From positions 1-34,201 of the IMG/VR virus record IMGVR_UViG_3300047383_000085: a DNA stretch of 34,201 bases; one strand, 5' to 3'. The notes under the pieces were generated by a model that was not told where the DNA came from, did no database searches, and saw only the letters and a list, made by a program, of their open reading frames with translations. A program made the translations under genes and the position numbers. The DNA is from a virus. Below are positions 3,970 through 32,444 of the stretch, piece after piece; the first letter of the stretch is position 1; every line of letters begins with the position of its first letter.

Positions 3970-4416
3970 TTGAGAGACAGCATTAAAAAAGAATATTGGT
4001 GGGTGAGCGCGGGCGAGGTGGAGAACGAAAGCGAATCACCATTCATCGCCATGAAATACAATTCAATCTTTAGAGATTATTCGAAATTGCGCAAACAAGT
4101 TTGGAACTGGTATCGCACGCACGCGGGGAGAGAAGATTTATCGCCAGTAGCTAAACTTTTACTTTGGAGCGTGTGCGAGCGGTATCGTTGGCAAACCTGG
4201 AGCAGCCACGATGCCATTAGTTATTATTGCAAGATGATAGGGGTGCATCGCACTAGCGCGAGTCGTGGTATGAGTGAGTTATTAGAGAAAGAAGTTCTTT
4301 GGTGTGTGCTAGAGGGTGAGCGCAAGCGGTTAAGGAAATCGCAAGCGGGGGGTAAGAAGCATTTTTTATTGGTTGGTTTAGGTGCGCACTTGCGCGAGGT
4401 GGGGCGCGATAGCTAA
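3970..4416 (+). CDS. Winged-helix / HTH DNA-binding protein, candidate replication initiator or regulator
   Basis: TTG start preceded by AGGAGA. The segment LSPVAKLLLWSVCERY...DAISYYCKMIGVHRTSASRGMSELLEKEVL looks like a wHTH. The gene is conspicuously GC-rich (35 of 60 G+C at 4381-4440). Confidence 0.65.
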   Translation: MRDSIKKEYWWVSAGEVENESESPFIAMKYNSIFRDYSKLRKQVWNWYRTHAGREDLSPVAKLLLWSVCERYRWQTWSSHDAISYYCKMIGVHRTSASRGMSELLEKEVLWCVLEGERKRLRKSQAGGKKHFLLVGLGAHLREVGRDS

Positions 4417-4453
4417 CTTGGGGAAGGAGAGTAAAGCTATCTTAGTGCGCCCC
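4401..4453. terminator. Large inverted repeat between convergent genes, a possible bidirectional terminator
   Basis: GGGGCGC GATAGCT (4401-4414) pairs with AGCTATC ...GCGCCCC (4435-4453). It spans the stop codon of 3970..4416. There is no clear U-tract. Confidence 0.4.
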
Positions 4454-4473: not shown

Positions 4474-4659
4474 TTAAGCTATTATATCCCCGTTTTTAAA
4501 TATTTTTGCCATTTTTAGGCCTTGCGGTGAGATTAAAAGCCAGTTGCCCTCGGTGTCTTGGTGCGAGCGGGTGCGGGAGGGGTATTCAAGATCACCGCCT
4601 AGGCTGTAAGTTTCTTTCATATGGTTAATGTATTTATATTCCGCTATTTCGTATGACAT
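4474..4659 (-). CDS. Hypothetical 61-aa protein, last gene of the leftward operon
   Basis: The ORF abuts the upstream gene with a 1-nt spacer and is on the same strand as its neighbours. Confidence 0.55.
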   Translation of the reverse strand: MSYEIAEYKYINHMKETYSLGGDLEYPSRTRSHQDTEGNWLLISPQGLKMAKIFKNGDIIA

Positions 4660-4660
4660 A

Positions 4661-4870
4661 TTACTTTCCTATTTTATAATCAATGGTATTGCCACAATAT
4701 GAAGATAATTCTTCCATTGCTCCAAGCACACTGGCTGTCTGTGTTTGTTTAAACTCAATAGGCTTTTGAACTTCAAAACCATATTTATTGCAATCTTTCA
4801 TCATTGCTTTTTTATTGGTGTATACATAAACAAGATTATATTCATGGCATTGTGCTACATAAAATTTCAT
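4661..4870 (-). CDS. Hypothetical 69-aa protein
   Basis: ATG at 4870 (MKFYVAQ...) is preceded by GGGGGA. The tracked start at 4885 is a TTG. Confidence 0.55.
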   Translation of the reverse strand: MKFYVAQCHEYNLVYVYTNKKAMMKDCNKYGFEVQKPIEFKQTQTASVLGAMEELSSYCGNTIDYKIGK

Positions 4871-4971
4871 TACATATTCCCCCAATAATTAACGATTAGC
4901 CATAGTATTAAGACTATGACTAACCATATTAAAAAACCAATACCAAAAATAAAACCAAGTATTTCAATCAT
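4870..4971 (-). CDS. 33-aa hydrophobic single-pass membrane peptide
   Basis: Hand translation of the minus strand: MIEILGFIFGIGFLIWLVIVLILWLIVNYWGNM. The stop overlaps the next ATG and the start abuts the upstream stop (TAAATG). Confidence 0.4.
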   Translation of the reverse strand: MIEILGFIFGIGFLIWLVIVLILWLIVNYWGNM

Positions 4972-5124
4972 TTAAACCTCTTGGCTTTCCATGGGTGAGA
5001 TATGCCTACATCCACAATGCGGACAATCATCGTCCACTTGGCAATCCCAATAATCTTGCCAAGCGTATTCGCATTTTGGGCATTCATAATAGTTCAGCCA
5101 AGTCATTGCTATTTGTTCATTCAT
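4972..5124 (-). CDS. Small Cys-rich zinc-ribbon protein (50 aa)
   Basis: Hand translation: MNEQIAMTWLNYYECPKCEYAWQDYWDCQVDDDCPHCGCRHISPMESQEV. It fills the gap exactly between flanking genes. Confidence 0.55.
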   Translation of the reverse strand: MNEQIAMTWLNYYECPKCEYAWQDYWDCQVDDDCPHCGCRHISPMESQEV

Positions 5125-5309
5125 TAGTGCGATTCCTGGATTATTACATTCTTTTTGCGCTTATCCTCGTAAGATTTAACAATCTTCCCGCATGGATAGG
5201 TTAAGAGCCAATAATCTTTATTAAAGTTCTTGCTCATGCTTGGGATGTTTTCCCTTTCGGTTTTAAGCAAGCGCCTAGCTTCCTCTATCATTTCTTTATG
5301 CTGTGTCAT
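5124..5309 (-). CDS. Hypothetical 61-aa protein
   Basis: ORF with overlapping start/stop junctions on both sides. Confidence 0.55.
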   Translation of the reverse strand: MTQHKEMIEEARRLLKTERENIPSMSKNFNKDYWLLTYPCGKIVKSYEDKRKKNVIIQESH

Positions 5310-5509
5310 GATTCCCCCATTGGTAAATTTAAAAGTTTATCTATTCTGTGTTCATCCAGCGATATAAAGCGCAAGATCTCCTCTTGCTGTCTGTGTGTGT
5401 AGCTGTCGAAGTCTTTTATATACTTTGCTGGATTGTCGAATAGATCGCGCAAGTATTTTATTATTTCGCGCCTAGCGAATTGCTTTGGTGTTAAGTTATT
5501 TATTTTCAT
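5306..5509 (-). CDS. Hypothetical 67-aa protein
   Basis: ATG at 5509 (MKINNLTPKQF...) is preceded by AAGGAGAG. The longer tracked ORF start lacks an RBS. Confidence 0.55.
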   Translation of the reverse strand: MKINNLTPKQFARREIIKYLRDLFDNPAKYIKDFDSYTHRQQEEILRFISLDEHRIDKLLNLPMGES

Positions 5510-5681
5510 TATTGCTCTCCTTATAATTTTTATAATACAATTTAATTTCATTCGGTCTTGAATCTGAGCATTCATCCTCGGTCATTCCACATACAGAACA
5601 AGACAAGTTATCTGCCTTAAGATGTATGTAGTTATCTTCACATTCGCAATCCCAGTATTTAGGGTCTGTTTTAACTGTCAT
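5496..5681 (-). CDS. Small Cys-rich zinc-ribbon-like protein (61 aa)
   Basis: KYWDCECEDNYIHLKADNLSCSVCG. It shares the YWDC motif with 4972..5124. Confidence 0.55.
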   Translation of the reverse strand: MTVKTDPKYWDCECEDNYIHLKADNLSCSVCGMTEDECSDSRPNEIKLYYKNYKESNNENK

Positions 5682-5899
5682 GCTCTCTCCCCCTTGGTTT
5701 TATAAGTTTTTAAAATGGTTTTGACTTTGTTTACTAAGTCTTGGTAATTTTTCGCGCTGTATCCGTTAGCCTTGAATAATTCCAAGGCTTGCGGATTGAT
5801 TAGCGGGTTGTCATTGGTGTGCGCTAAGAACCAGTTAAGAAGCTCTAATTCTTGGCGGTTAATCTTTGGCTTGTTGAAGTTGTATCTAGCTAGGCTCAT
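5678..5899 (-). CDS. Hypothetical 73-aa protein
   Basis: 4-nt overlaps with both neighbours. Confidence 0.55.
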   Translation of the reverse strand: MSLARYNFNKPKINRQELELLNWFLAHTNDNPLINPQALELFKANGYSAKNYQDLVNKVKTILKTYKTKGERA

Positions 5900-6084
5900 T
5901 GGTCTACCCCCAAATAATCGTCAATCCACTCTAAACATTCCGCTTTAGTTCCCCAGTAATCAAGGCCATCTTTTAGGCATTGCACATAATAAAAAGGCGT
6001 AAAATTATTTTTATCTAATGTTGAACCAATCCATTTTTTAGGGCTGTCAACATACAAAAGCTCAAATATGTTTTTAATAATCAT
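5896..6084 (-). CDS. Hypothetical 62-aa protein
   Basis: ORF in the operon register with a 4-nt overlap downstream. Confidence 0.55.
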   Translation of the reverse strand: MIIKNIFELLYVDSPKKWIGSTLDKNNFTPFYYVQCLKDGLDYWGTKAECLEWIDDYLGVDQ

Positions 6085-6086
6085 AG

Positions 6087-6275
6087 TTAAACCTCTTCAG
6101 CAAAATATATTTGACTATCGCCAATCAGCACGCTGTCGTTAATTTCCCATTCAATAGAATCATCATCTTTTGCTAACTCCTCGGCTTGCTCTAATGAATC
6201 CGCGTATATGTACGCTTCTTTTTGCATGGTGTATGTTTGGGTTATCCTAAACTCTTTTAATGTATCAGCGCTCAT
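6087..6275 (-). CDS. Hypothetical acidic 62-aa protein
   Basis: ATG at 6275 (MSADTLKEF...) overlaps the upstream stop (TAATG). 16 Asp/Glu against 4 Lys/Arg by direct count. Confidence 0.55.
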   Translation of the reverse strand: MSADTLKEFRITQTYTMQKEAYIYADSLEQAEELAKDDDSIEWEINDSVLIGDSQIYFAEEV

Positions 6276-6412
6276 TAGATCACCCACGATATAAGAGTTA
6301 ATAAGGATGCAAAGAAAAATATAATGATTATATTCTCGGTAATTGTCCGCGCTTGGTTCGTCCAGTGTTGCGGTTTTCTTGGCTTGTGTAATTTGTGCGC
6401 GTAGTCTTTCAT
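6275..6412 (-). CDS. 45-aa protein with a C-terminal hydrophobic segment
   Basis: Hand translation: MKDYAHKLHKPRKPQHWTNQARTITENIIIIFFFASLLTLISWVI. TAATG junctions at both ends. Confidence 0.4.
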   Translation of the reverse strand: MKDYAHKLHKPRKPQHWTNQARTITENIIIIFFFASLLTLISWVI

Positions 6413-6588
6413 TATTTCCCCCTTAATAGTTGAATGAGTTTATCGTGCAAAATGTCGATTTCTTTTGGGTTTAATTGATCGTTTATAGTCTCTTCATAGT
6501 TATCTATAGGGATACTGGTTGAAGAATAACTATTAACGCTATTGATAATATGAGTCAATAAACCTAATTCTTTTTTATTTAATTCCAT
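6412..6588 (-). CDS. Hypothetical 58-aa protein
   Basis: Hand translation: MELNKKELGLLTHIINSVNSYSSTSIPIDNYEETINDQLNPKEIDILHDKLIQLLRGK. The start abuts the upstream stop (TAAATG). Confidence 0.45.
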   Translation of the reverse strand: MELNKKELGLLTHIINSVNSYSSTSIPIDNYEETINDQLNPKEIDILHDKLIQLLRGK

Positions 6589-6915
6589 TTAGGCCACCTC
6601 TTCAAGTTTATTAACATACTCAGAAACAATCTCTTCACCTATGATGTAGGTATACATATTTACAACTCTTTCAGCATCGCTGAAATCGGTTGATACTTCG
6701 CCAAATTCAGATTTCTCATATTCTCTAATATGTTCTATAACATCAAAAACTTTATCGCCTAGCCATTGCTTAGCTTGGTAAGTGCCTATGATGTAATAAT
6801 CAGTATTGAAAGCATGGTGATGAAGATCATCCTTGTTCTCTTCTATCCATTCCGCATCTTGATCATTAATGAAATCATCAAAATATTCTTTTATCTCTTC
6901 TCTTTTATAATCCAT
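6589..6915 (-). CDS. Strongly acidic 108-aa early protein
   Basis: 29 Asp/Glu against 10 Lys/Arg by direct count. It is the second gene of the leftward operon, with an AGGAGAG RBS upstream. Confidence 0.65.
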   Translation of the reverse strand: MDYKREEIKEYFDDFINDQDAEWIEENKDDLHHHAFNTDYYIIGTYQAKQWLGDKVFDVIEHIREYEKSEFGEVSTDFSDAERVVNMYTYIIGEEIVSEYVNKLEEVA

Positions 6916-6956
6916 TTTTACTCTCCTTTAATAAATGGGTTGCTTATACCACGAAA

Positions 6957-6974
6957 GCCCCGAAAAGACGGGGC
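6957..6974 (-). terminator. GC hairpin between genes 1 and 2 of the leftward operon, a possible attenuator or terminator
   Basis: On the minus strand: GCCCCG-TCTTTT-CGGGGC followed by TTTCG. It lies in the only sizeable gap in an otherwise gapless operon. Confidence 0.45.
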
Positions 6975-6993
6975 GTTAAATCGTGGGGGGTTG

Positions 6994-7197
6994 TTATGCT
7001 ATTGCTTGCTCTTCGTAATTGTCGATGTAATGGCGCAGAATTTTAGAAACTTCTTTGGGTGAATAATCTATAAATTTATTTCTATATTCAAAATCATCGT
7101 CAAAATAATTGTGCATAGATACTTCAATTAAACTGTGATGCACAGTTATAAACATAAAATAATTTTTATAATTTTCTTGGTATTCTTCAATTATCAT
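6994..7197 (-). CDS. Hypothetical acidic/aromatic 67-aa protein, first gene of the leftward operon
   Basis: ATG is preceded by AAGGAGAG. It lies directly downstream of the divergent promoter region. Confidence 0.6.
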   Translation of the reverse strand: MIIEEYQENYKNYFMFITVHHSLIEVSMHNYFDDDFEYRNKFIDYSPKEVSKILRHYIDNYEEQAIA

Positions 7198-7232
7198 TTT
7201 TACTCTCCTTAATTAGTTAATGAACACTATCT

Positions 7233-7260
7233 ATAATACGCACATTTTCACACATTGCAA
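7233..7260 (-). promoter_or_regulatory. Sigma70-like promoter candidate for the leftward operon
   Basis: On the minus strand: TTGCAA (7255-7260), a 16-nt spacer, then TATTAT (7233-7238). The overlapping plus strand reads TATAAT at 7232-7237. The surrounding 165-bp gap is AT-rich with TTAATTA repeats. Confidence 0.45.
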
Positions 7261-7362
7261 CATATTTATATAAATTAATTATGGGTTTTTGTGTAAATCC
7301 TTTAATATAAAGGCATAAGGGAACATTAATTAATTACAATTAATTACTAATAAAAATGAATT

Positions 7363-7815
7363 ATGGAACAAAAAACGCCTAAAAAGAGAGGAAGAAAGGC
7401 TTTAATTCTCACACAAGATCAAATTAATCAAATCGAGTATCTTTGTTCTTTAAACATGGGAATCATGGACGTCTGCCGAAGTTTGGGGATTAGTTGGAGT
7501 TCGTTCGATAAAAATCGAAAGAAAAAACAAGAAATAAATGACGCAATCGAGAGGGGAAAAGCTAAAGGATTGCAAAGAGCAACTTCTAAACTTATGGAAA
7601 AAATAGAGGATGGCGAATTTCAAGCGATCCAGTTCTATCTCAAATCAGCCGATCGCGAGCGCTGGGCAGAAAAAGCTGAAATTTCCCATACTTTAAATTT
7701 AAGCGAGATCATATCGAGCGCCAACGCGCGCATAATCGAACACAAAGGCGAAGCGCTAGCGCACGCGCCCGAAGAGATCGACATAAAACAATTAAACAAG
7801 GCCACGAAGTCATGA
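7363..7815 (+). CDS. terS: Terminase small subunit-like HTH protein
   Basis: N-terminal basic segment plus HTH (QINQIEYLCSLNMGIMDVCRSLGIS), then ...AIQFYLKSADRERWAEK, typical of small terminases. It lies upstream of TerL. Confidence 0.6.
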   Translation: MEQKTPKKRGRKALILTQDQINQIEYLCSLNMGIMDVCRSLGISWSSFDKNRKKKQEINDAIERGKAKGLQRATSKLMEKIEDGEFQAIQFYLKSADRERWAEKAEISHTLNLSEIISSANARIIEHKGEALAHAPEEIDIKQLNKATKS

Positions 7816-8079: not shown

Positions 8080-9612
8080 ATGAAATATAAAGCCGAAGAC
8101 GAAAAGAGATTGATGACAGAGATATGGTCAGTCAATGTAAAAGACGATCCATTAAATTTTGTTAAGTTTGCTTTCCCATGGGGAATGAAAGACACCCCCC
8201 TCGAAGACTTTAAAGGCCCGCGTAAGTGGCAGGAAAAAATTTTGCGAGAAATGACAATCCATATTGCTAGAAATGGCACTAGGGATTTACCAGAGATGTT
8301 TAGAATGGCTGTAGCTTCAGGTCGTGGTATTGGTAAGTCTGCTTTGGTTGCATGGATTATTCTTTGGATGTTGTCCACAAGACTGGGGGCTACCATCATA
8401 GTAACCGCTAACACCGAACAACAGCTTAGAAGTAGAACTTGGGCTGAACTTGGTAAGTGGATGACTCTTGCAATCAACTCTCATTGGTTTCAAAAAACAG
8501 CAACCACAGTCAAACCAGCACCTTGGTTTCAAGAAGCGCTAGAGCGCGACCTCAAGATTGATACTGGTTATTACTACGCGCAGGCGCAACTATGGTCAGA
8601 AGAAAATCCAGATGCCTTTGCGGGTATTCACAGCTCCTACGGGGTCTGTTTAATCATGGATGAGGCTTCGGGTATACCTTCGCCCATCTACAGCGTATCC
8701 GAGGGTTTCTTCTCTGAACCAACATCCAATCGTTACTGGTTTACTTTCTCCAACCCGCGCCGAAACACAGGCCCATTCTACGATTCCTTTAATAGCAAAA
8801 AGCGCTTTTGGCAAAATGTACAAATCGACTCGCGCACAGTCGAAGGCACTGACCAAAAGCTCTTCCAATCGATGATCGAGCAGTATGGCGAAGATTCCAC
8901 AGTCGCGCGCGTGGAGGTCATGGGCGAGTTTCCTAGCGCGGACGATGATACTGTCATACCGCTTGACTTAGTGCGCGGTGCGGTAGAACGCGATGTCACG
9001 CTCACCGCGAATGAACCAATCGTTTGGGGTTTGGATGTTGCGCGATTCGGTGGCGATAACAGTGCGCTGTGCGTGCGCCAGGGAAACACTGTCTTAGAAA
9101 TAAAATCATTTGCCTCCATGGACTTGATGCAACTTTGTGGTGTGGTTAAAAACCGCTACGATGATTGTACTGTGATGGAAAGACCGCAAGAGATCTTGGT
9201 CGATGTGATTGGACTTGGTGCTGGGGTGGTTGATCGATTGCGTGAGCAAAATTTACCAGTGCGCGGGGTGAATGTGGCAGAAGCTCCAAGTACCAAAAAG
9301 AACTATTTGAACTTGCGAGCTGAGTTATGGTTTGCGATTAAGGATTGGCTGGCGCAGCGTGATTGCCGACTTCCTAATGATGATGAGCTTGTATCAGAAT
9401 TAGCTGCGCCTCTTTACAAATATACTTCGACTGGAAAAATAAAGATAGAGTCAAAAGATGAAATGCGCAAACGCGGAATAAAATCTCCAGACAAAGCAGA
9501 TGCACTTGCATTGACCATGGCAAGTTCGGCTGCAAGTTTTAGTGGAAGCGAGAGTTATTTCGGTTATAATTTCAAAAAACCTTTAAAATCTCGAATCATT
9601 CGAGTGGGATAA
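8080..9612 (+). CDS. terL: Terminase large subunit
   Basis: Walker A-like VASGRGIGKS and Walker B-like CLIMDEAS. C-terminal RNase H-like nuclease motifs GLDVARFGGDNSAL, LVDVIGLGAGVVDRL and SPDKADALAL. 510 aa. Confidence 0.95.
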   Translation: MKYKAEDEKRLMTEIWSVNVKDDPLNFVKFAFPWGMKDTPLEDFKGPRKWQEKILREMTIHIARNGTRDLPEMFRMAVASGRGIGKSALVAWIILWMLSTRLGATIIVTANTEQQLRSRTWAELGKWMTLAINSHWFQKTATTVKPAPWFQEALERDLKIDTGYYYAQAQLWSEENPDAFAGIHSSYGVCLIMDEASGIPSPIYSVSEGFFSEPTSNRYWFTFSNPRRNTGPFYDSFNSKKRFWQNVQIDSRTVEGTDQKLFQSMIEQYGEDSTVARVEVMGEFPSADDDTVIPLDLVRGAVERDVTLTANEPIVWGLDVARFGGDNSALCVRQGNTVLEIKSFASMDLMQLCGVVKNRYDDCTVMERPQEILVDVIGLGAGVVDRLREQNLPVRGVNVAEAPSTKKNYLNLRAELWFAIKDWLAQRDCRLPNDDELVSELAAPLYKYTSTGKIKIESKDEMRKRGIKSPDKADALALTMASSAASFSGSESYFGYNFKKPLKSRIIRVG

Positions 9613-9615
9613 AAA

Positions 9616-10092
9616 ATGCAGTTGGAAGAATTAATGCAAACTCTTAACTATGCCAAGAAAGGCAGGGGTAGAGATTTTTTAATTCAACAACGCATGAAAA
9701 ATCAAGATCCTATGAATTTACAGAACATGGATGTTTTGCAAAAACAAAAAGGATTGCCATTTGTTGATAGAGTTTTAGAACCAGGTAAATATCCTACTCC
9801 ATCATTACTTGATGATGGCAAGATGCAAACACATCTCATGTCAGCAGAACAAGATGATGAGGGTAACTGGTTTGTATTTCCAAATGTTATAATGCAAAAA
9901 GGTAAATATAAAAAATTTAAAACTGTTAATGCGGCAATGAAAAATGCTAAAAAAACAGGCAACCTTATTTCTTTTGGTAAAGGAGAAAATGCAAAACAAA
10001 AAGCATTAAATTTTTCCGCTAATTATAAGCCAGAAGAATTTAAAGAATTTTATAAGGGCGTACAAGAAAAAACAGGCGGACTGTTAAACTAG
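9616..10092 (+). CDS. Hypothetical 158-aa Lys-rich protein between TerL and portal
   Basis: ORF tightly packed between TerL and the portal gene. No motif recognised. Confidence 0.6.
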   Translation: MQLEELMQTLNYAKKGRGRDFLIQQRMKNQDPMNLQNMDVLQKQKGLPFVDRVLEPGKYPTPSLLDDGKMQTHLMSAEQDDEGNWFVFPNVIMQKGKYKKFKTVNAAMKNAKKTGNLISFGKGENAKQKALNFSANYKPEEFKEFYKGVQEKTGGLLN

Positions 10093-10101
10093 GTAAAATA
10101 A

Positions 10102-12249
10102 ATGGCAAAAGATTACGAAGACAAAATGGAAGATGTGGTTAGTTCTGAAACTGACATGGAGCATCTTGCTGGTGTTATTAAATCAGAGATGGATGATGCA
10201 AAAGATTTCATTCATCAAGTGGGTGCAGAGCGAGCAGAATCTACAGAATATTATTTAGGTGAGCAACCACAAGCACAATCTAGCATGCAGTCTGAATTTG
10301 TTTCGACTGATGTTAGAGATAGCATTTTGTTTATGCTTCCATCTATCATGCGTACATTCTTTGGCACTAAAAAGATTGTTGAATTTGTACCGCATGGTCC
10401 AGAAGATATCCCTGTTGCCGAGCAACAAACTAACTATGTTAATTACATCATTCAAGAAAAAAACCAAGGCTTTCAAGTTTTATACGATGCGTTTAAAGAT
10501 GCGTTGGTTAGAAAGAGTGGTTTTGTCAAAGTCTTTTGGGATGATTCTATTTTAGCATCTACCAGCGAATACACAGACTTAGATCCTGTTTCATATCAAG
10601 CCTTAGTGCTTGATCCTAATGTAGAGGTTGTTAAAGAATCTGTCACCATGGAAATGATGACCCAGGTTGATCCTCTGTCTGGCGAAGAAGTAACACAAGA
10701 GATTCCTGCTAAGTACGATGTAACCATTCGTAGAGTTAAAGCCAAAGATCAAGTGTGTATTGAATCCATACCACCCGAAGAAGTTTTAATTTCACGCAAC
10801 GCGCGCGATCTTGAATCTGCATCTTATGTCGCGCACCGCATGATTAAATCTGTTTCTGATTTGGTTGCTATGGGTTATGACCAAGACGAAATAGAACAAT
10901 ACGCAACCCAAAGCTCAAGCGCGGTTGACCCAGAAGCCTTTGATGAGATAGAAGCAAGAAATCCATTTGACAACATGGTGTACCCAGACAGAAATGATAC
11001 TGGGGCGAAAGAAGTTTTATATGTTGAACATTATCTTTTTTATGACTTTGATGGCGATGGCATTGATGAAAGAATTAGAGTTTGTACTGCGGGTGAAGGT
11101 GTGAATGTGTTGAATGTAGAACAATGGGATGATTTACCTATTGCTATGTTCTGCCCAGATCCTGAACCACATACTGCAATCGGTTCGTGTCCAGCGGATT
11201 ACTTAAAGCCTATCCAAGCTGCAAAATCCCAAATTATGCGAGATACCCTTGATTCGCTTGGACACTCTATCTTTCCTCGTATGGCTGTTGTTGAAGGTCA
11301 AGTCAATATTGACGATGTACTCAATACTGATATCGGACAGCCCATTCGAGTTCGCGCCCCTGGGATGGTTCAACCCTTTACAGTACCCTTCGCTGGTAAA
11401 GAGGCTTTCCCTGTTCTTGGATACCTCGATGAAGCAAAAGAGAATAGGACTGGTGTGTCTAAAGCCTCTGCTGGCTTAAATGCAGATGCTTTGCAATCAA
11501 GCACCAGTGCAGCTGTGTCCGCTACCATGTCAGGAGCGCAAGGCCGAATAGAAATTATTTGCAGACATTTTGCAGAGGGTGGACTCAAACAACTCTTTAA
11601 AATTACTAACAACTTAATTATCAAACATCAAAATGCACAAGATGTATTTAGACTAGAGGGTCAATTTATTCCTGTTGATCCTAGATACTGGGAATCAGAT
11701 AAAGACATGGTTGTTAATGTGGCTATCTCTAAATCTTCTGATGAAGAGAAGTTTGCAATACTTGCACAGCTTGCAGGCAAACAAGAACAAATCATGCAAA
11801 CTCTTGGGCCAAGCAATCCATTGGTATCCATGCAACAATATTCTAATACTTTGACTCGCATGATCGAGATGGCTGGATTTAAAGATCCACAAGCGTTTAT
11901 TAATACGCAAGTACCACCTATGCCTCCGCAACCGCCTGAGTCACAACAACCTGATGCAGCTACCATGCTCGCACAAGCAGAAGCTATGAAAGCGCAAAAC
12001 CAAGCGCAGAAAGCTATCATTGATGCTGAGACTGATCGCATGAAGATCATTATGGATGATGATAGAAACAGAGATGAGACAGAAGCGCAGATTAGACTTA
12101 AAGCAGCAGAATTAACTGCTAAGTATGGCGCACAAGTCAACATTGCAGAGATAAATGCTATCATGGAGCGTGACCGAGAAAACATTAGGCAAACTGCAAA
12201 AGATCAAGCTCAAGGACTATTTACTGGCAATGGCAATCAAACTATATAA
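10102..12249 (+). CDS. Portal protein
   Basis: 715 aa, immediately after TerL. It has a long C-terminal Ala/Gln/Glu-rich helical tail (AEAMKAQNQAQKAIIDAETDRMK...) like P22-type portal barrels. Confidence 0.85.
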   Translation: MAKDYEDKMEDVVSSETDMEHLAGVIKSEMDDAKDFIHQVGAERAESTEYYLGEQPQAQSSMQSEFVSTDVRDSILFMLPSIMRTFFGTKKIVEFVPHGPEDIPVAEQQTNYVNYIIQEKNQGFQVLYDAFKDALVRKSGFVKVFWDDSILASTSEYTDLDPVSYQALVLDPNVEVVKESVTMEMMTQVDPLSGEEVTQEIPAKYDVTIRRVKAKDQVCIESIPPEEVLISRNARDLESASYVAHRMIKSVSDLVAMGYDQDEIEQYATQSSSAVDPEAFDEIEARNPFDNMVYPDRNDTGAKEVLYVEHYLFYDFDGDGIDERIRVCTAGEGVNVLNVEQWDDLPIAMFCPDPEPHTAIGSCPADYLKPIQAAKSQIMRDTLDSLGHSIFPRMAVVEGQVNIDDVLNTDIGQPIRVRAPGMVQPFTVPFAGKEAFPVLGYLDEAKENRTGVSKASAGLNADALQSSTSAAVSATMSGAQGRIEIICRHFAEGGLKQLFKITNNLIIKHQNAQDVFRLEGQFIPVDPRYWESDKDMVVNVAISKSSDEEKFAILAQLAGKQEQIMQTLGPSNPLVSMQQYSNTLTRMIEMAGFKDPQAFINTQVPPMPPQPPESQQPDAATMLAQAEAMKAQNQAQKAIIDAETDRMKIIMDDDRNRDETEAQIRLKAAELTAKYGAQVNIAEINAIMERDRENIRQTAKDQAQGLFTGNGNQTI

Positions 12250-12403: not shown

Positions 12404-12675
12404 TGGCAATTACATACAGAGGCGAAAGGTTTAGCGGTTATAACAAACCCAAAAGAACACCTAATCACAAAACAAAATCACACGCAGTTTTAGCCAAGGT
12501 TGGTGATATCATAAAACTTATACGCTTTGGTCAACAGGGTGTTAGTGGTGCTGGTAAAAATCCCCAGTCTGCAAAAGGTAAAGCCAGAAGAAAATCATTT
12601 AAGGCTAGACACGCTAAAAATATTTCTAAAGGAAAATTGTCAGCAGCTTATTGGGCTGATAAAGTAAAGTGGTAA
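12403..12675 (+). CDS. Small basic protein (90 aa)
   Basis: Lys/Arg-rich, with a C-terminal RRKSFKARHAKNISKGKLSAAYWADKVKW motif. First of four consecutive basic ORFs. Confidence 0.65.
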   Translation: MAITYRGERFSGYNKPKRTPNHKTKSHAVLAKVGDIIKLIRFGQQGVSGAGKNPQSAKGKARRKSFKARHAKNISKGKLSAAYWADKVKW

Positions 12676-12678
12676 ATT

Positions 12679-12867
12679 ATGAATAGAAAGTTTAAAAAAG
12701 TTCCGAAGACTAAGGGCGGTGTTCCAAAGAAATATGTTAGTGGAGCAAAAAACCCAAAGGCAAGAGAAGCAGAAATTAAAAAAACTTCTGCTTTATATAA
12801 GGCTGGTAAACTTACACCAGCTATGATGAATAGAATCGCAAAACAAAGGGCTAAAAGTGTCAAATAA
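12679..12867 (+). CDS. Small hyper-basic protein (62 aa)
   Basis: 20 Lys/Arg in 62 residues by direct count. Confidence 0.6.
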   Translation: MNRKFKKVPKTKGGVPKKYVSGAKNPKAREAEIKKTSALYKAGKLTPAMMNRIAKQRAKSVK

Positions 12868-13096
12868 ACAAGATGTTATAAACAAATATCACAAATCTAG
12901 TGGTATATCAAAAAGCACTTTAGGAAAAGTTTATCAACGAGGAATGGGTGCTTATTACTCTTCTGGTTCTCGTCCTGGACAAACACCGCAATCATGGGCT
13001 GCTGGTCGTGTAAGATCATTTGCTACAGGTAAAGGCGGTGCAAGAGAGGCAGATAAAGATTTATTAAGACCTAAAAAATCAAAAAAAAGGAGCTAA
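12857..13096 (+). CDS. Small basic protein (79 aa)
   Basis: VYQRGMGAYYSSGSRPGQTPQSWAAGRVRSFATGKGG core with a KKSKKRS tail. The start overlaps the upstream gene by 11 nt. Confidence 0.6.
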   Translation: MSNKQDVINKYHKSSGISKSTLGKVYQRGMGAYYSSGSRPGQTPQSWAAGRVRSFATGKGGAREADKDLLRPKKSKKRS

Positions 13097-13098
13097 TT

Positions 13099-13206
13099 AT
13101 GCCAATGGTAGGAAAAAGGAAATACTCATACACAAAAGCTGGTGTGAAAAAAGCAAAAGCTGCTGCTAAGAAGAGCGGTAAAAAAATGACTTATAAGAAA
13201 AAATAA
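13099..13206 (+). CDS. 35-aa H1-tail/protamine-like basic peptide
   Basis: Hand translation: MPMVGKRKYSYTKAGVKKAKAAAKKSGKKMTYKKK, 14 Lys/Arg in 35 residues. AGGAG RBS lies 7 nt upstream. Confidence 0.5.
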   Translation: MPMVGKRKYSYTKAGVKKAKAAAKKSGKKMTYKKK

Positions 13207-13227
13207 GTGAAGCCATCCTCGGCAAAA
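13196..13227. repeat. 32-bp perfect direct repeat, copy 1
   Basis: AGAAAAAATAAGTGAAGCCATCCTCGGCAAAA is identical to 13534-13565, checked base by base at an offset of 338 bp. Mismatches flank both ends. Confidence 0.95.
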
Positions 13228-13236
13228 ACCGAATGA
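13207..13236 (+). pseudogene. Duplicated, truncated 5' end of the nuclease gene at 13545
   Basis: GTG AAG CCA TCC TCG GCA AAA matches the first 7 codons of 13545..13922, then stops after 9 codons. The TGA overlaps the ATG of the ParB-like ORF. Confidence 0.55.
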
Positions 13237-13544
13237 CTCTTTATCAGATGATTAATAAACTTAAACAAGATATGAAAGAAAATCATCATAAAGATTGGCT
13301 TGGATGGGTAGCTAAAAATAAAGTTTTTAAATTAAAAACCATTCCTATAGACTCTGTAGCACCAGCAAATGGTTTGACACTTGACCAAAATAAGATAAAT
13401 AATATGACTAAAAGTGATTTGAGTAATGCTCCTGTTATTGTGGTTCATAAAGATGGCAACATTATTGATGGCAATCATAGACATTCAGCATTAAAGAAAC
13501 AAGGCGCTCAAACAATACAAGTTTACACAGGCGAGAAAAAATAA
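13233..13544 (+). CDS. Stand-alone ParB/Srx-fold (ParB N-terminal nuclease-like) domain protein
   Basis: PVIVVHKDGNIIDGNHRHSALKKQGAQTIQVY matches the ParBc core (P-x-V...DG-x-HR). 103 aa. It is bracketed by the 32-bp repeats. Confidence 0.7.
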   Translation: MTLYQMINKLKQDMKENHHKDWLGWVAKNKVFKLKTIPIDSVAPANGLTLDQNKINNMTKSDLSNAPVIVVHKDGNIIDGNHRHSALKKQGAQTIQVYTGEKK

Positions 13545-13565: not shown

Positions 13566-13922
13566 GCCAAGGGTCGAAAACTACAGCAATGGGTTGTTGA
13601 TAAACTTGTTGCAATACTTGGTTTTGATCCTGAAGATTTAGAATCAAGACCTATGGGATCTTCTGGCGAAGATGTCATTATGGGCGTTCAATCACGCAAA
13701 CAATTCCCCTACTCAATCGAGTGCAAAAACCAACAAGCAGTTAATGTTTGGAAGGCTTATGAGCAATCTTGTACTAACTGTAAAGATTACGAGCCTTTAG
13801 TTATAATAAAACGAAACAATACTAAACCATTGGCATTAGTCGATGCAGAGTATTTTATTAAACTGCATAAGGATCAAGATGGAACAAGAACCGAAAATAG
13901 AGATACACCAACATCAGAATAA
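13545..13922 (+). CDS. PD-(D/E)XK nuclease, Holliday-junction-resolvase (Hjc)-like
   Basis: KGRKLQQWVVDKL...GSSGEDVIMG...YSIECKN gives a D...E-x-K arrangement with an N-terminal helix, as in archaeal-type resolvases. GTG start. Confidence 0.55.
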   Translation: MKPSSAKAKGRKLQQWVVDKLVAILGFDPEDLESRPMGSSGEDVIMGVQSRKQFPYSIECKNQQAVNVWKAYEQSCTNCKDYEPLVIIKRNNTKPLALVDAEYFIKLHKDQDGTRTENRDTPTSE

Positions 13923-14133
13923 AACTTGGTATAACTTAGCCGAGGGTTTTGATAAATGGCGAGTCTTTCCCAGATTGCTCATTACTTTATATGGTTATGC
14001 TTTCTATAAAACTACTGAATGGTTTATGACCTTACCTGATCCAACCAATTCTCAATCAGCATTTGTTTCTGTTATTGTGGGCGCAGGTGCTGCATGGTTT
14101 GGTTTGTATGTTGGCGGTTCACCTAAAAGATAA
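13879..14133 (+). CDS. Two-TM small membrane protein, holin/antiholin-like
   Basis: Hydrophobic segments RLLITLYGYAFY and AFVSVIVGAGAAWFGLYVGG. ATG at 13879 follows AAGGA. An alternative ATG at 13843 is possible. Confidence 0.5.
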   Translation: MEQEPKIEIHQHQNKTWYNLAEGFDKWRVFPRLLITLYGYAFYKTTEWFMTLPDPTNSQSAFVSVIVGAGAAWFGLYVGGSPKR

Positions 14134-14435
14134 TGACCGAAGCAAAAGTCAATGATAGGACTACCTTTAATATTTCTATTAGTTATCTAATACAAATTAT
14201 TCTTGCTATTGCTGCTTTTGTTTATGGTTATGCTTCTATCAGTGAACACATAGAAAAAAATGACACAGAAATAAAAAATTTACGAGCTAACCAAAATACA
14301 TATATTTTTCCTGATATTAGATTGTTAGAACAAAAGGTAATAGTCTTGGAAAAAGAAGTGTTGGTTTTACAAAAAGAAATAGAATTTCATAAAAAAGAAA
14401 TTCAAGGCATCAAAAAAGGTATTGAAAATGATTAA
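14133..14435 (+). CDS. N-terminal TM anchor plus coiled-coil protein
   Basis: ISYLIQIILAIAAFVYGYASI is followed by heptad-like LEQKVIVLEKEVLVLQKEIEFHKKEIQGIKK. Confidence 0.55.
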   Translation: MTEAKVNDRTTFNISISYLIQIILAIAAFVYGYASISEHIEKNDTEIKNLRANQNTYIFPDIRLLEQKVIVLEKEVLVLQKEIEFHKKEIQGIKKGIEND

Positions 14436-14784
14436 ACAAATAGCAAAAGACTTTTTTATTAAATGGCAACAGGCTTGTTATGTTTGCTTTCCTATGATGG
14501 TACAGGGCAACTTATTTGCTCTTACATTTGACCATTGGATTAAAGCAAACAAAACAGGAATTATTGCAGGTTTTGGAGCAGTTTTACTTGGCTATACTGT
14601 TCTTAAAAAATACAAAGATAAGAAATGGTTTCATGGAGTAACAATTGCAACAGCTTGTTTTGTTGGTGATCTAATGATTCACCCATCTCACTTTGCTGGT
14701 GTATTTGGCGAAGCTGCATTAACAGCTATAGCATCTGGACTCCTTGCCACTTACTTTGTTTACAAGCCAATTAAATTAAAATGA
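14428..14784 (+). CDS. Multi-pass membrane protein
   Basis: At least three hydrophobic stretches (GIIAGFGAVLLGYTVL, GVTIATACFVGDLMI, ALTAIASGLLATYFVY). The ATG at 14428 is preferred over the TTG at 14422. Confidence 0.55.
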   Translation: MIKQIAKDFFIKWQQACYVCFPMMVQGNLFALTFDHWIKANKTGIIAGFGAVLLGYTVLKKYKDKKWFHGVTIATACFVGDLMIHPSHFAGVFGEAALTAIASGLLATYFVYKPIKLK

Positions 14785-15161
14785 TAGACAAACTTATAGA
14801 ACCCGTCACTCACATACTTGACAAGTTTGTTGCAGATAAAGATTTAAAAGCTAAGTTAGATCACGAAATAAAAACACAGTTTCATAAAATTGATCTTGCA
14901 CAAATAGAAGTTAATAAAGTAGAGGCATCTCATAGATCTATTTTTGTAGCTGGTTGGAGGCCTTGTTGCGGTTGGATATGTGCCATTGCACTTGGTTATC
15001 ACTTTGTTTTACAACCAATTATCTTATTTGTTTTATCGTTATATGACTTGCAATATCAACTACCTGAGTTTGACATGGGTGCATTACTTTATGTCTTAGG
15101 CGGTATGTTAGGTCTTGGTGGATTAAGAAGTTATGAAAAGTCAAAAGGTTTGACCAAATGA
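14781..15161 (+). CDS. Holin, GTA-type 3TM family-like
   Basis: LAQIEVNKVEASHRSIFVAGWRPCCGWICAIALGYHFVLQPI matches the conserved N-x-x-EA...F-x-x-GWRP-x-x-GW core of the '3TM holin for gene-transfer release' family. It lies directly upstream of the endolysin (ATGA overlap). Confidence 0.7.
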   Translation: MIDKLIEPVTHILDKFVADKDLKAKLDHEIKTQFHKIDLAQIEVNKVEASHRSIFVAGWRPCCGWICAIALGYHFVLQPIILFVLSLYDLQYQLPEFDMGALLYVLGGMLGLGGLRSYEKSKGLTK

Positions 15162-15532
15162 GTGATTGGAAGAATTTTAAGCTAGATGAGTTTAAATGTA
15201 AGCATTGTGGTGAAAATGAGATTGAATATGAGTTAATAGATAAGTTACAATCACTAAGAGAGGACTTAGGTTTTCCATTTATTATTTCTTCTGGTTACAG
15301 ATGCGAACATCACCCAGTAGAAAAAAAGAAAAGTAAGCCAGGCACTCACAATTTAGGTATTGCAGTCGATATTCGTTGCAGTCACAAAGAAGCATTACAA
15401 ATAGTATCCGCAGCAGAGGGTTACGGATTTACAGGAATTGGAGTTAATCAAAAAGGCAATGGAAGATTTATACACCTCGATATCGCAAAAGCTACGCATG
15501 ATCGTCCAAGGCCTCATATCTGGAGCTATTGA
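15158..15532 (+). CDS. Endolysin, peptidase M15 (zinc D-Ala-D-Ala carboxypeptidase-like) family
   Basis: FKLDEFKCKHCG...LREDLGFPFIISSGYRCEHHP...THNLGIAVDI...GRFIHLDI gives the H...D...H zinc-ligand layout of M15A peptidases. Confidence 0.8.
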   Translation: MSDWKNFKLDEFKCKHCGENEIEYELIDKLQSLREDLGFPFIISSGYRCEHHPVEKKKSKPGTHNLGIAVDIRCSHKEALQIVSAAEGYGFTGIGVNQKGNGRFIHLDIAKATHDRPRPHIWSY

Positions 15533-31624: not shown

Positions 31625-31836
31625 AGACTTTCAATATCAAATACAACTTCTTGATCCTTGTAATGCTTAACGGAGTTAATTCCTACTTGTAGGAAATACT
31701 CCGCTAATGCTTGAGGATCTTTATTTTCCAACCCAGCCACATCTATCAAAGAACGCGCAATGTGTCTGTTTACATAAACAGGCGTATTGTTGTTCCTCTC
31801 ATTTAGAACTGGATCTTCAAAATCAAACAAGTTCAT
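31621..31836 (-). CDS. Hypothetical 71-aa protein
   Basis: ORF downstream of the DUF3310-like gene. Its stop overlaps the stop of the convergent 31226..31624 gene (TTAA). Confidence 0.55.
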   Translation of the reverse strand: MNLFDFEDPVLNERNNNTPVYVNRHIARSLIDVAGLENKDPQALAEYFLQVGINSVKHYKDQEVVFDIESL

Positions 31837-31846
31837 TGCTTTACTC

Positions 31847-32149
31847 CTAGACCTTTACCTCCTTAGAGTATGGGCCTAATTTGTTACCCTCTCCGTCTAC
31901 ACCATGTACAAGCTGTAGTTCAAGGTCAATGTAATGCTTGGCTTTGAGTAAGTCTTCAACCTTATCAACCTTATCTCTGGTAATAAGTTTCAACACATTA
32001 CCCATCGACCATGACAATCCATTTGCGTAAATATACTCAATGGGTTGTATGCCATTGCCTTTATAATGATTGCCACCTACCTGGTTATTGATCGCAAGCA
32101 TATCAATTGCTTGATCCCATTCCTCTGGGGTTACATTATCTATACTCAT
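31847..32149 (-). CDS. DUF3310-like phage protein
   Basis: GGNHYKGNGIQPIEYIYANGLSWSMGNVLKLITR...AKHYIDLEL is the characteristic DUF3310 core. Confidence 0.7.
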   Translation of the reverse strand: MSIDNVTPEEWDQAIDMLAINNQVGGNHYKGNGIQPIEYIYANGLSWSMGNVLKLITRDKVDKVEDLLKAKHYIDLELQLVHGVDGEGNKLGPYSKEVKV

Positions 32150-32175
32150 ATTCTTCTCCTTTTTTATAAATATAT

Positions 32176-32204
32176 TTGCATATCATATAACTTTAGTGTA
32201 AATT
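32176..32204 (+). promoter_or_regulatory. Sigma70-like promoter candidate for the rightward replication module
   Basis: TTGCAT (32176-32181), a 17-nt spacer, then TAAATT (32199-32204). It lies in the divergent gap upstream of 32241. Confidence 0.4.
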
Positions 32205-32240
32205 TAACAACATTCAAATACAAAAAGGGAGTATTAGGAA

Positions 32241-32444
32241 ATGACAGACACCGATAGAGTCTTTATAGACACTAAGCAACTAGCTAAAAGGTGGGGCAAA
32301 AATCCACACGCGCTATCAAATTTAAGGCGCAAAGGCGGAGGCCCTAACTATTATAAGATTGGCGGTAAAATTCTTTATGATCTATCAGAGATCAAGCAAT
32401 TAGAAGAAAGCTCATACGTTTCCAATGGCTCACGCAATATTTAG
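32241..32444 (+). CDS. Excisionase/AlpA-type HTH DNA-binding protein
   Basis: FIDTKQLAKRWGKNPHALSNLRRKGGGPNYYKIGGKILYDLSEI is the MerR-superfamily Xis-like HTH pattern. AGGGAGTAT RBS. Confidence 0.65.
   Translation: MTDTDRVFIDTKQLAKRWGKNPHALSNLRRKGGGPNYYKIGGKILYDLSEIKQLEESSYVSNGSRNI

What the first reader, a model, noticed from the sequence alone, without database searches (positions are those of the whole stretch)
4474..7197. Leftward operon of 14 miniproteins chained by overlapping start/stop codons
Between the divergent promoter gap (7198-7362) and the convergent hairpin at 4401-4453, the minus strand is packed with 14 ORFs of 33-108 aa. Five of them fall below the 60-aa ORF-track cut-off, and I recovered those by hand translation: 4870..4971, 4972..5124, 6275..6412 and 6412..6588, plus re-started neighbours.

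Nearly every junction is ATGA, TAATG or TAAATG, which implies translational coupling. The set includes two Cys-rich zinc-ribbon proteins, two membrane peptides and three acidic proteins. None has a recognisable enzymatic motif.

This is the classic layout of host-takeover or anti-defence loci, and it is the most accessory-looking part of the genome.
Basis: partly seen in the sequence, partly recalled or inferred. Interest (0 to 1): 0.62.

Follow-up and report, generated by a model that had tools for sequence, protein, structure and literature searches.

The report
Swappable early accessory-gene operon in phage
Fourteen tiny, tightly chained genes in an abundant uncultured marine phage form a real gene-swapping hotspot; close relatives carry known anti-restriction genes (ArdA, an Ocr-like protein, a DNA methylase) in the same operon, so it is most likely the phage's early counter-defence and host-takeover module, an ordinary kind of locus holding mostly unknown proteins.

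Summary
On the minus strand, 4474-7197 holds 14 ORFs of 33-108 aa. Twelve of the 13 junctions overlap or leave a gap of 2 nt or less. All 14 ORFs show purifying selection (dN/dS about 0.01-0.5).

The window is a complete 34.2-kb viral genome from a very abundant, uncultured marine podovirus-like lineage. In 29 relatives the same interval, between a winged-helix replication gene and terS, always holds a leftward operon. Its content is highly mosaic: 334 genes fall into 128 families, 75 of them singletons. Exchange breakpoints lie at gene borders.

A conserved stem-loop with compensatory substitutions follows gene 1. It is followed by a TGGTATAA motif and a Shine-Dalgarno (SD) sequence, and together they mark a swappable "slot 2". 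Here slot 2 holds m02 (108 aa, net charge -19). In phages with 94-99% identical TerL, the same slot holds ArdA (Pfam E 1.7e-19; PDB 2W82 E 1e-7). Other relatives carry an Ocr-like protein, an MT-A70 methylase or an LPD29 protein in the operon.

None of the window's 14 proteins matches a known anti-defence family by sequence. The m02 and m14 models have no PDB fold match. Early timing is inferred, not shown.

This is a new member of a known kind: a phage accessory or hyperplastic region. This scan has noted similar cassette arrays in other phages.

The parts
7233..7260 (-). Sigma-70-like promoter candidate for the leftward operon (TTGCAA-16-TATTAT). The -10 element ends 35 nt before the m01 ATG.
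   Evidence: Comparable TTGxxx / TAxxxT pairs lie 23-52 nt before the first leftward gene in most of 23 distinct relatives. Each site is weak on its own (mean 9.4 of 12 matches against 8.5 in shuffles). This part is inferred.
6994..7197 (-). m01, 67 aa, net charge -7. It fills 'slot 1', the variable first gene of the operon.
   Evidence: dN/dS is 0.08-0.26. Only a weak PHROG hit (E 0.021), and no Pfam or PDB match. Other phages carry unrelated genes in slot 1, including an Ocr-like protein and an LPD29-domain protein.
6949..6986 (-). Conserved two-tier RNA stem-loop after gene 1 (outer stem CCACGA/TCGTGG, inner stem GCCCCG/CGGGGC).
   Evidence: Folding gives -20.5 kcal/mol, z -3.0. The element is unique in the genome. 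It is 94-100% conserved in 16 relatives whatever the flanking genes. Compensatory variants exist: GCCGAG/CTCGGC, GGCGCG/TGCGCC and CCACCA/TGGTGG. L007 has two copies.
6916..6948 (-). TATAAG hexamer preceded by TGG (resembles an extended -10 element), plus leader and SD GGAGAG. This is the conserved 5' joint of slot 2.
   Evidence: The same joint precedes m02, ArdA, DUF7222 and five other gene families in relatives. A promoter function is a guess.
6589..6915 (-). m02, 108 aa, net charge -19, predicted all-helical. Occupies slot 2 as a positional alternative to ArdA.
   Evidence: Hits phrog_10208 at 4e-19. Has 2188 homologue clusters, all unnamed. Homologues occur in Lactococcus 949-group, Enterococcus and Vibrio phages. 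AF2 model pLDDT 86. No PDB fold match, best E 5.8. No profile similarity to ArdA. dN/dS is 0.06-0.21.
6412..6588 (-). m03, 58 aa. No structure was predicted for it. A rare cassette.
   Evidence: present only in L008 among 80 loci. Its sequence cluster has 12 members. dN/dS is 0.33 from a single pair.
6275..6412 (-). m04, 45 aa: basic N-terminus plus a C-terminal transmembrane helix.
   Evidence: dN/dS is 0.02-0.19. It follows ArdA directly in L087 and L094.
6087..6275 (-). m05, 62 aa, net charge -12. Shares a strand + acidic helix motif (IYAxSxExAEE) weakly with T7 Gp2 and DpnD/PcfM.
   Evidence: Pfam RNA_pol_inhib E 0.094 and DpnD-PcfM E 0.034. phrog_1307 E 0.021. hhalign against T7 Gp2 gives probability 16%, P 0.0015. 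All are below thresholds. Only 7 homologue clusters. dN/dS is 0-0.39.
5896..6084 (-). m06, 62 aa, a variable cassette.
   Evidence: Present in L003 and L006 only among near relatives.
5678..5899 (-). m07, 73 aa, basic, conserved across the near clade.
   Evidence: 18 orthologues with dN/dS 0.05-0.14. Cluster of 292 members. No Pfam or PDB match.
5496..5681 (-). m08, 61 aa, Cys-rich (5 Cys) zinc-ribbon-like.
   Evidence: Hits phrog_18262 at 2.7e-7. dN/dS is 0.12 against L089. Cluster of 41 members.
5306..5509 (-). m09, 67 aa, conserved in the near clade. Its start is re-set to MKINNL.
   Evidence: dN/dS 0.01-0.13; 141 members. No family match.
5124..5309 (-). m10, 61 aa, basic, conserved in the near clade.
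   Evidence: (dN/dS 0.05-0.27). No family match.
4972..5124 (-). m11, 50 aa, 6 Cys, zinc-ribbon (CPKC...CPHC).
   Evidence: Weak Pfam zinc-ribbon hits. dN/dS is 0.04-0.05. Variable presence among relatives.
4870..4971 (-). m12, 33-aa single-pass membrane peptide, conserved in the near clade. An analogous 32-34-aa peptide family sits in the operon of other clades.
   Evidence: dN/dS 0.08-0.5; families 5 and 10.
4661..4870 (-). m13, 69 aa, a rare cassette. Also found in a phage with a different genome layout.
   Evidence: Absent from the 80 TerL loci. Cluster of 11 variants. dN/dS is 0.19-0.40 with the more diverged copies. In L093 it lies on the same strand as a replication module.
4474..4659 (-). 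m14, 61 aa. The only family found in nearly every relative's operon, and the fastest-evolving of the conserved members.
   Evidence: Present in 28 of 29 operons. dN/dS is 0.24-0.42 among near relatives. AF2 model pLDDT 90, one helix plus short strands. No PDB fold match, best E 0.74. Only 50 representatives among 1.8 billion proteins.
4401..4453 (.). Convergent hairpin ending the leftward operon. It overlaps the 3' end of the winged-helix gene (3970-4416, +).
   Evidence: (-23.9 kcal/mol, z -3.4).

Best explanation
The segment is the hyperplastic accessory-gene operon ('accessory region') of a lytic-looking marine podovirus.

Proposed mechanism:
- Host sigma-70 RNA polymerase most likely starts at a promoter in the 165-bp gap shared with terS and transcribes leftward early in infection.
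- The first gene is followed by a conserved stem-loop / TGGTATAA / SD unit. The remaining 13 genes are read as one translationally coupled message that ends at the convergent hairpin.
- The products are small, non-enzymatic binding proteins: acidic proteins, zinc ribbons and membrane peptides. They are proposed to act on host functions.
- The promoter-proximal slots are used for anti-restriction. Relatives carry ArdA or an Ocr-like protein there, and this phage carries the very acidic m02 in the ArdA slot.
- Genes are exchanged one at a time between related phages, by recombination at the conserved junction sequences (SD plus the start of the next gene).

Shown: the 14 ORFs are coding; the layout is translationally coupled; the synteny is conserved; the mosaicism is gene-sized; the stem-loop is conserved with compensatory changes; known anti-restriction genes sit in the same operon and slot in relatives.

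Inferred: the promoter, early timing, and any function of the 14 proteins of this window.
For: - Genome context: complete 34.2-kb genome. The operon is flanked by the winged-helix gene and by terS, terL and portal.
- Coding status: all 14 ORFs are under purifying selection.
- Synteny and mosaicism: 29 relatives keep the operon in place. They hold 6-21 genes each, falling into 128 families with 75 singletons.
- Coupled layout: 79% of 305 junctions overlap or leave a gap of 5 nt or less.
- Breakpoints lie at gene borders, and the flanks are collinear.
- The stem-loop is conserved with compensatory changes.
- Slot 2 holds 8 or more alternative genes after the same joint. One of them is ArdA in phages with TerL 99.4% and 94% identical.
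- Other relatives carry an Ocr-like first gene (phrog_2568 at 1.3e-6; BLASTP against T7 Ocr 8e-4), MT-A70 at 2.8e-34 and LPD29 at 6e-12.
- The junction upstream of m04 (ATTAAGGGGGAAATAATG) is shared by the m03 and the ArdA arrangements.
- Distant cultured relatives DSL-LC05 and RpY1 also have a leftward small-gene block beside the packaging genes.
- Literature: accessory regions of phages are enriched in counter-defence genes (bioRxiv 10.1101/2023.04.06.535777).
Against: - No protein of this window matches ArdA, Ocr, Gp2 or any other known anti-defence or takeover family at accepted thresholds. There are no PDB sequence matches.
- The m02 and m14 models have no PDB fold match, and m02 has no profile similarity to ArdA.
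- The promoter match is 9 of 12 and is not significant on its own in this AT-rich DNA.
- Relatives' operons also hold genes unrelated to defence: an NT5C nucleotidase, GP88 and an HNH-like gene. The region is therefore a general accessory bin, not a pure anti-defence island.
- The conserved distal genes (m07, m09, m10, m12, m14) could serve the phage's own regulation or replication.
Confidence: 0.7

Rival explanations
1. In this particular genome the operon is a general bin of ORFan genes with mixed roles and no counter-defence role. Possible roles are small transcription or replication regulators, superinfection-exclusion membrane peptides and nucleic-acid-binding zinc ribbons. On this reading, the ArdA, Ocr-like and methylase genes in relatives are just occasional passengers.
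For: No known anti-defence family is found among the 14 ORFs. Relatives' operons also hold NT5C, GP88 and HNH-like genes. The leftward block of the distant relative DSL-LC05 is annotated with a 'repressor protein C'. m07, m09, m10, m12 and m14 are conserved like core genes.
Against: The anti-restriction genes are not scattered. ArdA sits in exactly the m02 slot in two lineages, and the Ocr-like gene is promoter-proximal. Three of the slot-2 alternatives (m02, DUF7222, ArdA) are extremely acidic, with net charges of -17 to -30.
Confidence: 0.2
2. The operon is expressed late or constitutively. It would then encode accessory virion, lysis-timing or host-fitness ('moron') functions rather than early takeover functions. 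The two membrane peptides would act with the lysis system.
For: The operon lies next to the packaging genes. It contains two tiny membrane peptides. No timing data exist.
Against: An earlier, unchecked note places the lysis cassette elsewhere (14781-15532; e1-3415857; not tested here). The operon is on the opposite strand from all structural genes. ArdA and Ocr-type proteins only make sense if made at once on DNA entry (established knowledge of T7 gene 0.3 and ArdA). No integrase or repressor turned up among the ORFs scanned. That scan did not cover every ORF.
Confidence: 0.07
3. Some or all of the small ORFs are chance reading frames in AT-rich DNA, and the region is non-coding or regulatory.
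For: Several ORFs are below the usual gene-calling length, and most have no database family.
Against: dN/dS is 0.01-0.5 for all 14 ORFs. The ORFs recur in many metagenomes as intact frames. SD sequences and coupled junctions are present. Two models have high AF2 confidence.
Confidence: 0.01

Closest known systems
Phage accessory regions (ARs) holding counter-defence accessory genes (Silas et al., bioRxiv 10.1101/2023.04.06.535777)
   Same: This is a hotspot between conserved core genes (here the winged-helix gene and terS). Closely related phages carry different small, fast-turning-over genes there. Known anti-restriction genes (ArdA, Ocr-like, methylase) co-occur with unknown genes.
   Different: That work covered cultured enterobacterial phages. 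This is an uncultured marine lineage. Nothing here has been tested functionally, and the whole region is one translationally coupled antisense operon.
Hyperplastic regions and PeSL (promoter-early stem-loop) cassettes of T4-type phages (Arbiol et al. 2010, PMC2839356)
   Same: Non-essential ORFans are exchanged as modules. A conserved short regulatory unit containing a stem-loop marks an exchange joint, and it is duplicated in one relative (L007).
   Different: Only one such unit is present in this genome. Most joints are simply the SD/start-stop overlaps. The unit's order is stem-loop and then a -10-like motif, and neither its promoter nor its terminator activity is shown.
T7 class I early region (gene 0.3 Ocr, gene 2 Gp2) and the lambdoid pL operon (ral, kil, gam, abc) - from general knowledge
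   Same: A host-polymerase-driven early block of small, non-enzymatic proteins that disarm host systems, with the anti-restriction gene nearest the promoter.
   Different: There is no sequence or fold membership for any of the 14 proteins. The m05-Gp2 resemblance is below threshold. Timing is not measured.
ArdA anti-restriction DNA mimic (Pfam PF07275; PDB 2W82)
   Same: The slot-2 gene of close relatives is a true ArdA. m02 shares its position, its upstream joint and an extreme negative charge.
   Different: m02 is 108 aa against about 165-190 aa for ArdA. It has no sequence, profile or fold similarity to ArdA.

Membership tests
Phage accessory region (AR) / hyperplastic region | Variable gene content between conserved flanking core genes in otherwise closely related phages | tested here: met
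   Phages with TerL 99-100% identical differ in 7 of the 14 genes. 128 families were found in 29 operons.
Phage accessory region (AR) / hyperplastic region | Contains known counter-defence genes in at least some members | tested here: met
   ArdA, Ocr-like and MT-A70 occur in relatives' operons. None is present in this window.
PeSL-type mobile regulatory cassettes (T4-type phages) | Repeated unit of a strong sigma-70 early promoter plus a stem-loop terminator flanking ORFans, with recombination between copies | tested here: inconclusive
   There is one conserved stem-loop with a TGGTATAA motif per genome, and two in L007. Variable genes lie on both sides. No repeated array is present, and promoter and terminator activity are untested.
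ArdA (PF07275), for m02 | Match to the ArdA profile or fold | tested here: not met
   No Pfam hit. hhalign probability 0.06%. No PDB fold hit.
Ocr (T7 gp0.3), for m02 and m01 | Ocr-like sequence or fold | tested here: not met
   No PHROG, Pfam or PDB match. Acidic composition alone is not diagnostic.
T7 Gp2 RNA polymerase inhibitor (PF16857), for m05 | Profile match above the gathering score, plus the C-terminal Arg residues that contact the beta' jaw (from knowledge) | tested here: not met
   13.1 bits against a cut-off of 27. hhalign probability 16% over 36 columns. The C-terminal half of m05 has no Arg.
Early (host-RNAP-transcribed) phage operon | Transcription in the first minutes of infection from a host-type promoter | not testable with these tools
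   Only a positionally conserved sigma-70-like motif is available.

The most novel reading that the evidence does not exclude
m02 (PHROG 10208) has more than 2,000 sequence clusters in ocean metagenomes and homologues in Lactococcus, Enterococcus and Vibrio phages. It may be a previously unrecognised anti-restriction or anti-defence protein family, functionally interchangeable with ArdA and with the DUF7222 proteins. All three are loaded into one defined 'slot' bounded by a conserved stem-loop/SD joint and, for most alleles though not ArdA, an SD-encoding 'E-V-A-stop' joint. If so, that slot could be read as a natural catalogue of alternative early defence inhibitors.
Probability: 0.35. Interest if true: 0.65.

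Novelty: new member of a known kind. Interest (0 to 1): 0.5.

Why it matters
The lineage is extremely common in marine metagenomes: 341 viral contigs have TerL at least about 85% identical. It has no cultured member.

Its leftward operon gives a defined place to look for new counter-defence proteins. About eight unrelated genes alternate with ArdA behind the same joint, and the most frequent of them (m02) belongs to a large family of unknown function that is also present in dairy and enterococcal phages.

The gene-by-gene exchange at SD and start-stop joints is also a clean example of how phage accessory genes are shuffled. The locus type itself is well known, so the value lies in the candidates rather than in a new principle.

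Tried and rejected
- blastn of the operon against 50,697 cultured-phage records found no match. tblastn of m08 against the same records also found nothing.
- Pfam and PHROG scans of all 14 ORFs gave only families of unknown function or sub-threshold hits.
- PDB sequence searches for m01, m02, m05, m06, m07, m09, m10 and m13 found nothing credible.
- The m14 family was searched by profile against 1.8 billion representatives. It returned 50 small proteins plus chance hits to GW and fascin repeats. Its AF2 model has no PDB fold neighbour.
- The m02 AF2 model has no PDB neighbour. In BFVD it matches only two unnamed viral proteins (best 42% identical) and, weakly, a DUF7222 protein. hhalign finds no relation between m02 and DUF7222 or ArdA.
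- The idea that m05 is a Gp2-type RNA polymerase inhibitor is kept only as a weak lead.
- The idea that m10 is a paralogue of m14 (a shared 'WLL..G.K' motif seen by eye) is not supported by hhalign.
- A genome-wide consensus promoter scan is uninformative in this AT-rich genome.
- The lysis-module reading was set aside because an earlier, unchecked note places the lysis cassette elsewhere.
- The first all-against-all hhalign run timed out and was repeated on 22 families.

Full report
**What the window is**

The 34,201-bp window is a complete IMG/VR viral genome with terminal repeats. PHROG scans give the following plus-strand genes:
- terS (7363-7815), terL (8080-9612) and portal (10102-12249);
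- scaffold, major head protein, and tail and ejection proteins;
- a replication and recombination module that wraps across the contig ends: exonuclease 32425, Sak4-like 33373, SSB 253, primase-helicase 1065-2909 and a winged-helix protein 3970-4416.

Only two blocks lie on the minus strand. One is the 2.7-kb segment in question. The other is a short block at about 31626-32149.

No integrase or repressor turned up among the ORFs scanned. The 100-aa minus-strand ORF at 31847-32149 is a DUF3310 protein. The best cultured TerL relatives are only about 50% identical (Ralstonia phage RpY1, phage DSL-LC05). In contrast, 341 marine viral contigs encode TerL relatives, and the 80 kept are 85-100% identical. 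This is an abundant, uncultured lineage.

**The observation**

Fourteen minus-strand ORFs of 33-108 aa fill 4474-7197. The junctions are:
- ATGA, three times;
- TAATG, four times;
- TAAATG, twice;
- gaps of 1-2 nt, twice;
- one 14-nt overlap;
- one 78-nt spacer, between m01 and m02.

The compositional statements hold. There are two Cys-rich proteins (m08, m11) and two membrane peptides (m04, m12). Several proteins are acidic: m02 has net charge -19, m05 -12, m11 -8 and m01 -7. The convergent hairpin at 4401-4453 folds at -23.9 kcal/mol with z -3.4.

**Are they genes?**

Pairwise Nei-Gojobori dN/dS against orthologues in related contigs is 0.01-0.5 for 12 of the ORFs. m03 rests on a single, barely diverged pair. 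The two ORFs without informative orthologues in the first set were resolved with extra contigs:
- m08 gives 0.12;
- m13 gives 0.19-0.40 with the more diverged copies.

All but m04 are found as exact sequences in public metagenome proteins, in clusters of 3 to 292 members.

**Comparative anatomy**

In all 29 related loci that contain both anchors, the order is: winged-helix gene, then a minus-strand small-gene block, then terS and terL. The block is 1.2-4.9 kb long and holds 6-21 genes.

Together the blocks hold 334 genes. The median length is 66 aa and 84% are shorter than 100 aa. They fall into 128 families, of which 75 are singletons. Of 305 junctions, 79% overlap or leave a gap of 5 nt or less.

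Even phages whose TerL is 99-100% identical differ from the window in m01, m02, m03, m06, m08, m11 and m13. DNA alignments to near relatives break into blocks that coincide with single genes:
- 4868-4972 corresponds to m12;
- 5306-5509 to m09;
- 5688-5899 to m07;
- 6072-6284 to m05;
- 6272-6413 to m04;
- 6586-6992 to m02 plus the spacer.

The neighbouring replication and packaging genes align as long collinear blocks. More distant genomes retain 66-80% DNA identity in the core genes and none inside the operon.

Only m14's family is present in nearly every operon (28 of 29). It is also the fastest-evolving of the conserved members, with dN/dS about 0.3-0.4 among near relatives.

The distantly related cultured phages DSL-LC05 and RpY1 also have leftward small-gene blocks beside the packaging genes. 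The architecture is therefore old.

**Joints**

The 78-nt spacer after gene 1 contains a two-tier stem-loop at 6949-6986 (-20.5 kcal/mol, z -3.0). It is unique in the genome. It is followed by TGGTATAAG and the SD GGAGAG.

The unit is 94-100% conserved in 16 relatives irrespective of the genes on either side. Variants carry compensatory changes in both stems: GCCCCG/CGGGGC, GCCGAG/CTCGGC or GGCGCG/TGCGCC in the inner stem, and CCACGA/TCGTGG or CCACCA/TGGTGG in the outer stem. L007 has two copies.

Its function is not established. It could be an attenuator, a processing site or an internal extended -10 promoter.

The gene directly behind it ('slot 2') has at least eight unrelated alternatives. 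Most of them end in Glu-Val-Ala-stop. Across the pan-operon, fifteen unrelated families end this way, because the codons GAGGT(G/A)GCG TAA form the SD of the next gene.

The joint before m04 (ATTAAGGGGGAAATAATG) is identical whether m03 or ArdA precedes it. Exchange thus appears to use the short conserved SD and start-stop joints. This resembles the modular shuffling described for T4-type hyperplastic regions (PMC2839356), but without an array of repeated promoter cassettes.

**Function: direct tests on this window**

No ORF reaches a curated threshold for any named family.
- m02 belongs to phrog_10208, of unknown function (4e-19). It has 2,188 homologue clusters, all unnamed. It has homologues inside small-gene arrays of Lactococcus 949-group, Enterococcus and Vibrio phages.
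- The m02 AF2 model (pLDDT 86, five helices) has no PDB neighbour (best E 5.8). It has no profile similarity to ArdA.
- The m14 model (pLDDT 90) also has no PDB neighbour.
- m05 shows a weak resemblance to T7 Gp2 and DpnD/PcfM. All scores are below thresholds, and the Gp2 C-terminal arginines have no counterpart.
- PDB sequence searches of eight ORFs were empty.

**Function: evidence from the same operon in relatives**

- A contig whose TerL is 99.4% identical (L087/L088) carries a 191-aa ArdA protein. It scores Pfam PF07275 E 1.7e-19 at 71 bits, and PDB 2W82 E 1e-7.
- That ArdA lies exactly between the conserved stem-loop/SD joint and the m04 homologue. It therefore replaces m02+m03.
- A second lineage (L019/L094; TerL 94%) has an 85%-identical ArdA in the same place.
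- Other slot-2 alleles are a DUF7222 protein (net charge -17) and phrog_11100.
- In another clade the first gene of the operon is a 109-aa protein with net charge -18. It matches the PHROG 'ocr-like anti-restriction' family (1.3e-6) and aligns with T7 Ocr (30% identity over 60 residues, E 8e-4).
- Further relatives carry an MT-A70 DNA methyltransferase (2.8e-34) and an LPD29 domain protein in the operon.
- The operons also contain an NT5C nucleotidase, a GP88 protein and an HNH-like gene.

The locus is thus a general accessory bin with a clear anti-restriction theme at its promoter-proximal end. This fits the published description of phage accessory regions (bioRxiv 10.1101/2023.04.06.535777).

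**Timing**

A sigma-70-like pair (TTGCAA-16-TATTAT, 7260-7233) lies 35 nt before m01. Similar pairs lie at the same distance in most relatives, despite sequence divergence. Several are near-consensus (TTGACA-16-TAATAT, TTTACA-18-TATAAT). Each site is statistically weak in AT-rich DNA.

The other divergent gap (32150-32241) has TTGCAT-17-TAAATT before an ORF at 32242 whose translation, read by eye, resembles an AlpA/Xis-type HTH (not scanned). That ORF leads into the replication module.

ArdA and Ocr proteins must act as the DNA enters the cell (general knowledge). Early, host-polymerase-driven expression is therefore the most likely reading, at about 0.75.

**Verdict**

No individual protein of the window is assigned a function.

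The best candidate is m02, as a positional alternative to ArdA. The conserved distal set (m07, m09, m10, m12, m14) may equally serve lineage-specific regulation.

The kind of locus is known, and this scan has already described comparable cassette arrays in other phages. The novelty class is therefore 'new member of a known kind'. A moderate-probability lead points to a new, widespread anti-restriction family.

Noticed in passing
window 7363-7815 versus relatives L004, L006, L009, L014: terS is far more divergent than terL. Phages with 99-100% identical TerL have TerS only 68-72% identical, and other clades fall to about 28-34%. terS, together with the promoter gap, seems to take part in the mosaic exchange.
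   Followed up: no
window 31626-32440: There is a second short minus-strand block: a DUF3310 protein at 31847-32149 plus a further small ORF ending near 31837. It diverges from a sigma-70-like motif (TTGCAT-17-TAAATT). On the plus strand, an ORF starting at 32242 resembles an AlpA/Xis-type HTH by eye (not scanned) and precedes the exonuclease gene.
   Followed up: partly
pan-operon junctions, e.g. window 6586-6600: Fifteen unrelated protein families in the operons of relatives end with Glu-Val-Ala-stop. The codons GAGGT(G/A)GCGTAA double as the Shine-Dalgarno sequence of the next gene.
   Followed up: partly
L090:6222-8409: A relative with TerL about 90% identical carries two DNA methyltransferase genes (a C5 methylase and an N6/N4 methylase) in the replication-side module. 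This window has none there.
   Followed up: no
L093:333-542: A 93%-identical copy of m13 lies in a different genome layout. It is co-directional with a PDDEXK nuclease and a primase-helicase, so this cassette moves between phage architectures.
   Followed up: no
window 4474-4659 (m14): m14 is the only near-universal member of the operon, yet it evolves faster (75-82% identity) than neighbours that are 90-100% identical in the same genomes.
   Followed up: partly
window 9616-10092, 12531-13534 and 13870-15138: Further segments have no DNA match in the near relative G001 (L002's contig). The leftward operon is therefore the largest variable region of the genome, but not the only one.
   Followed up: no
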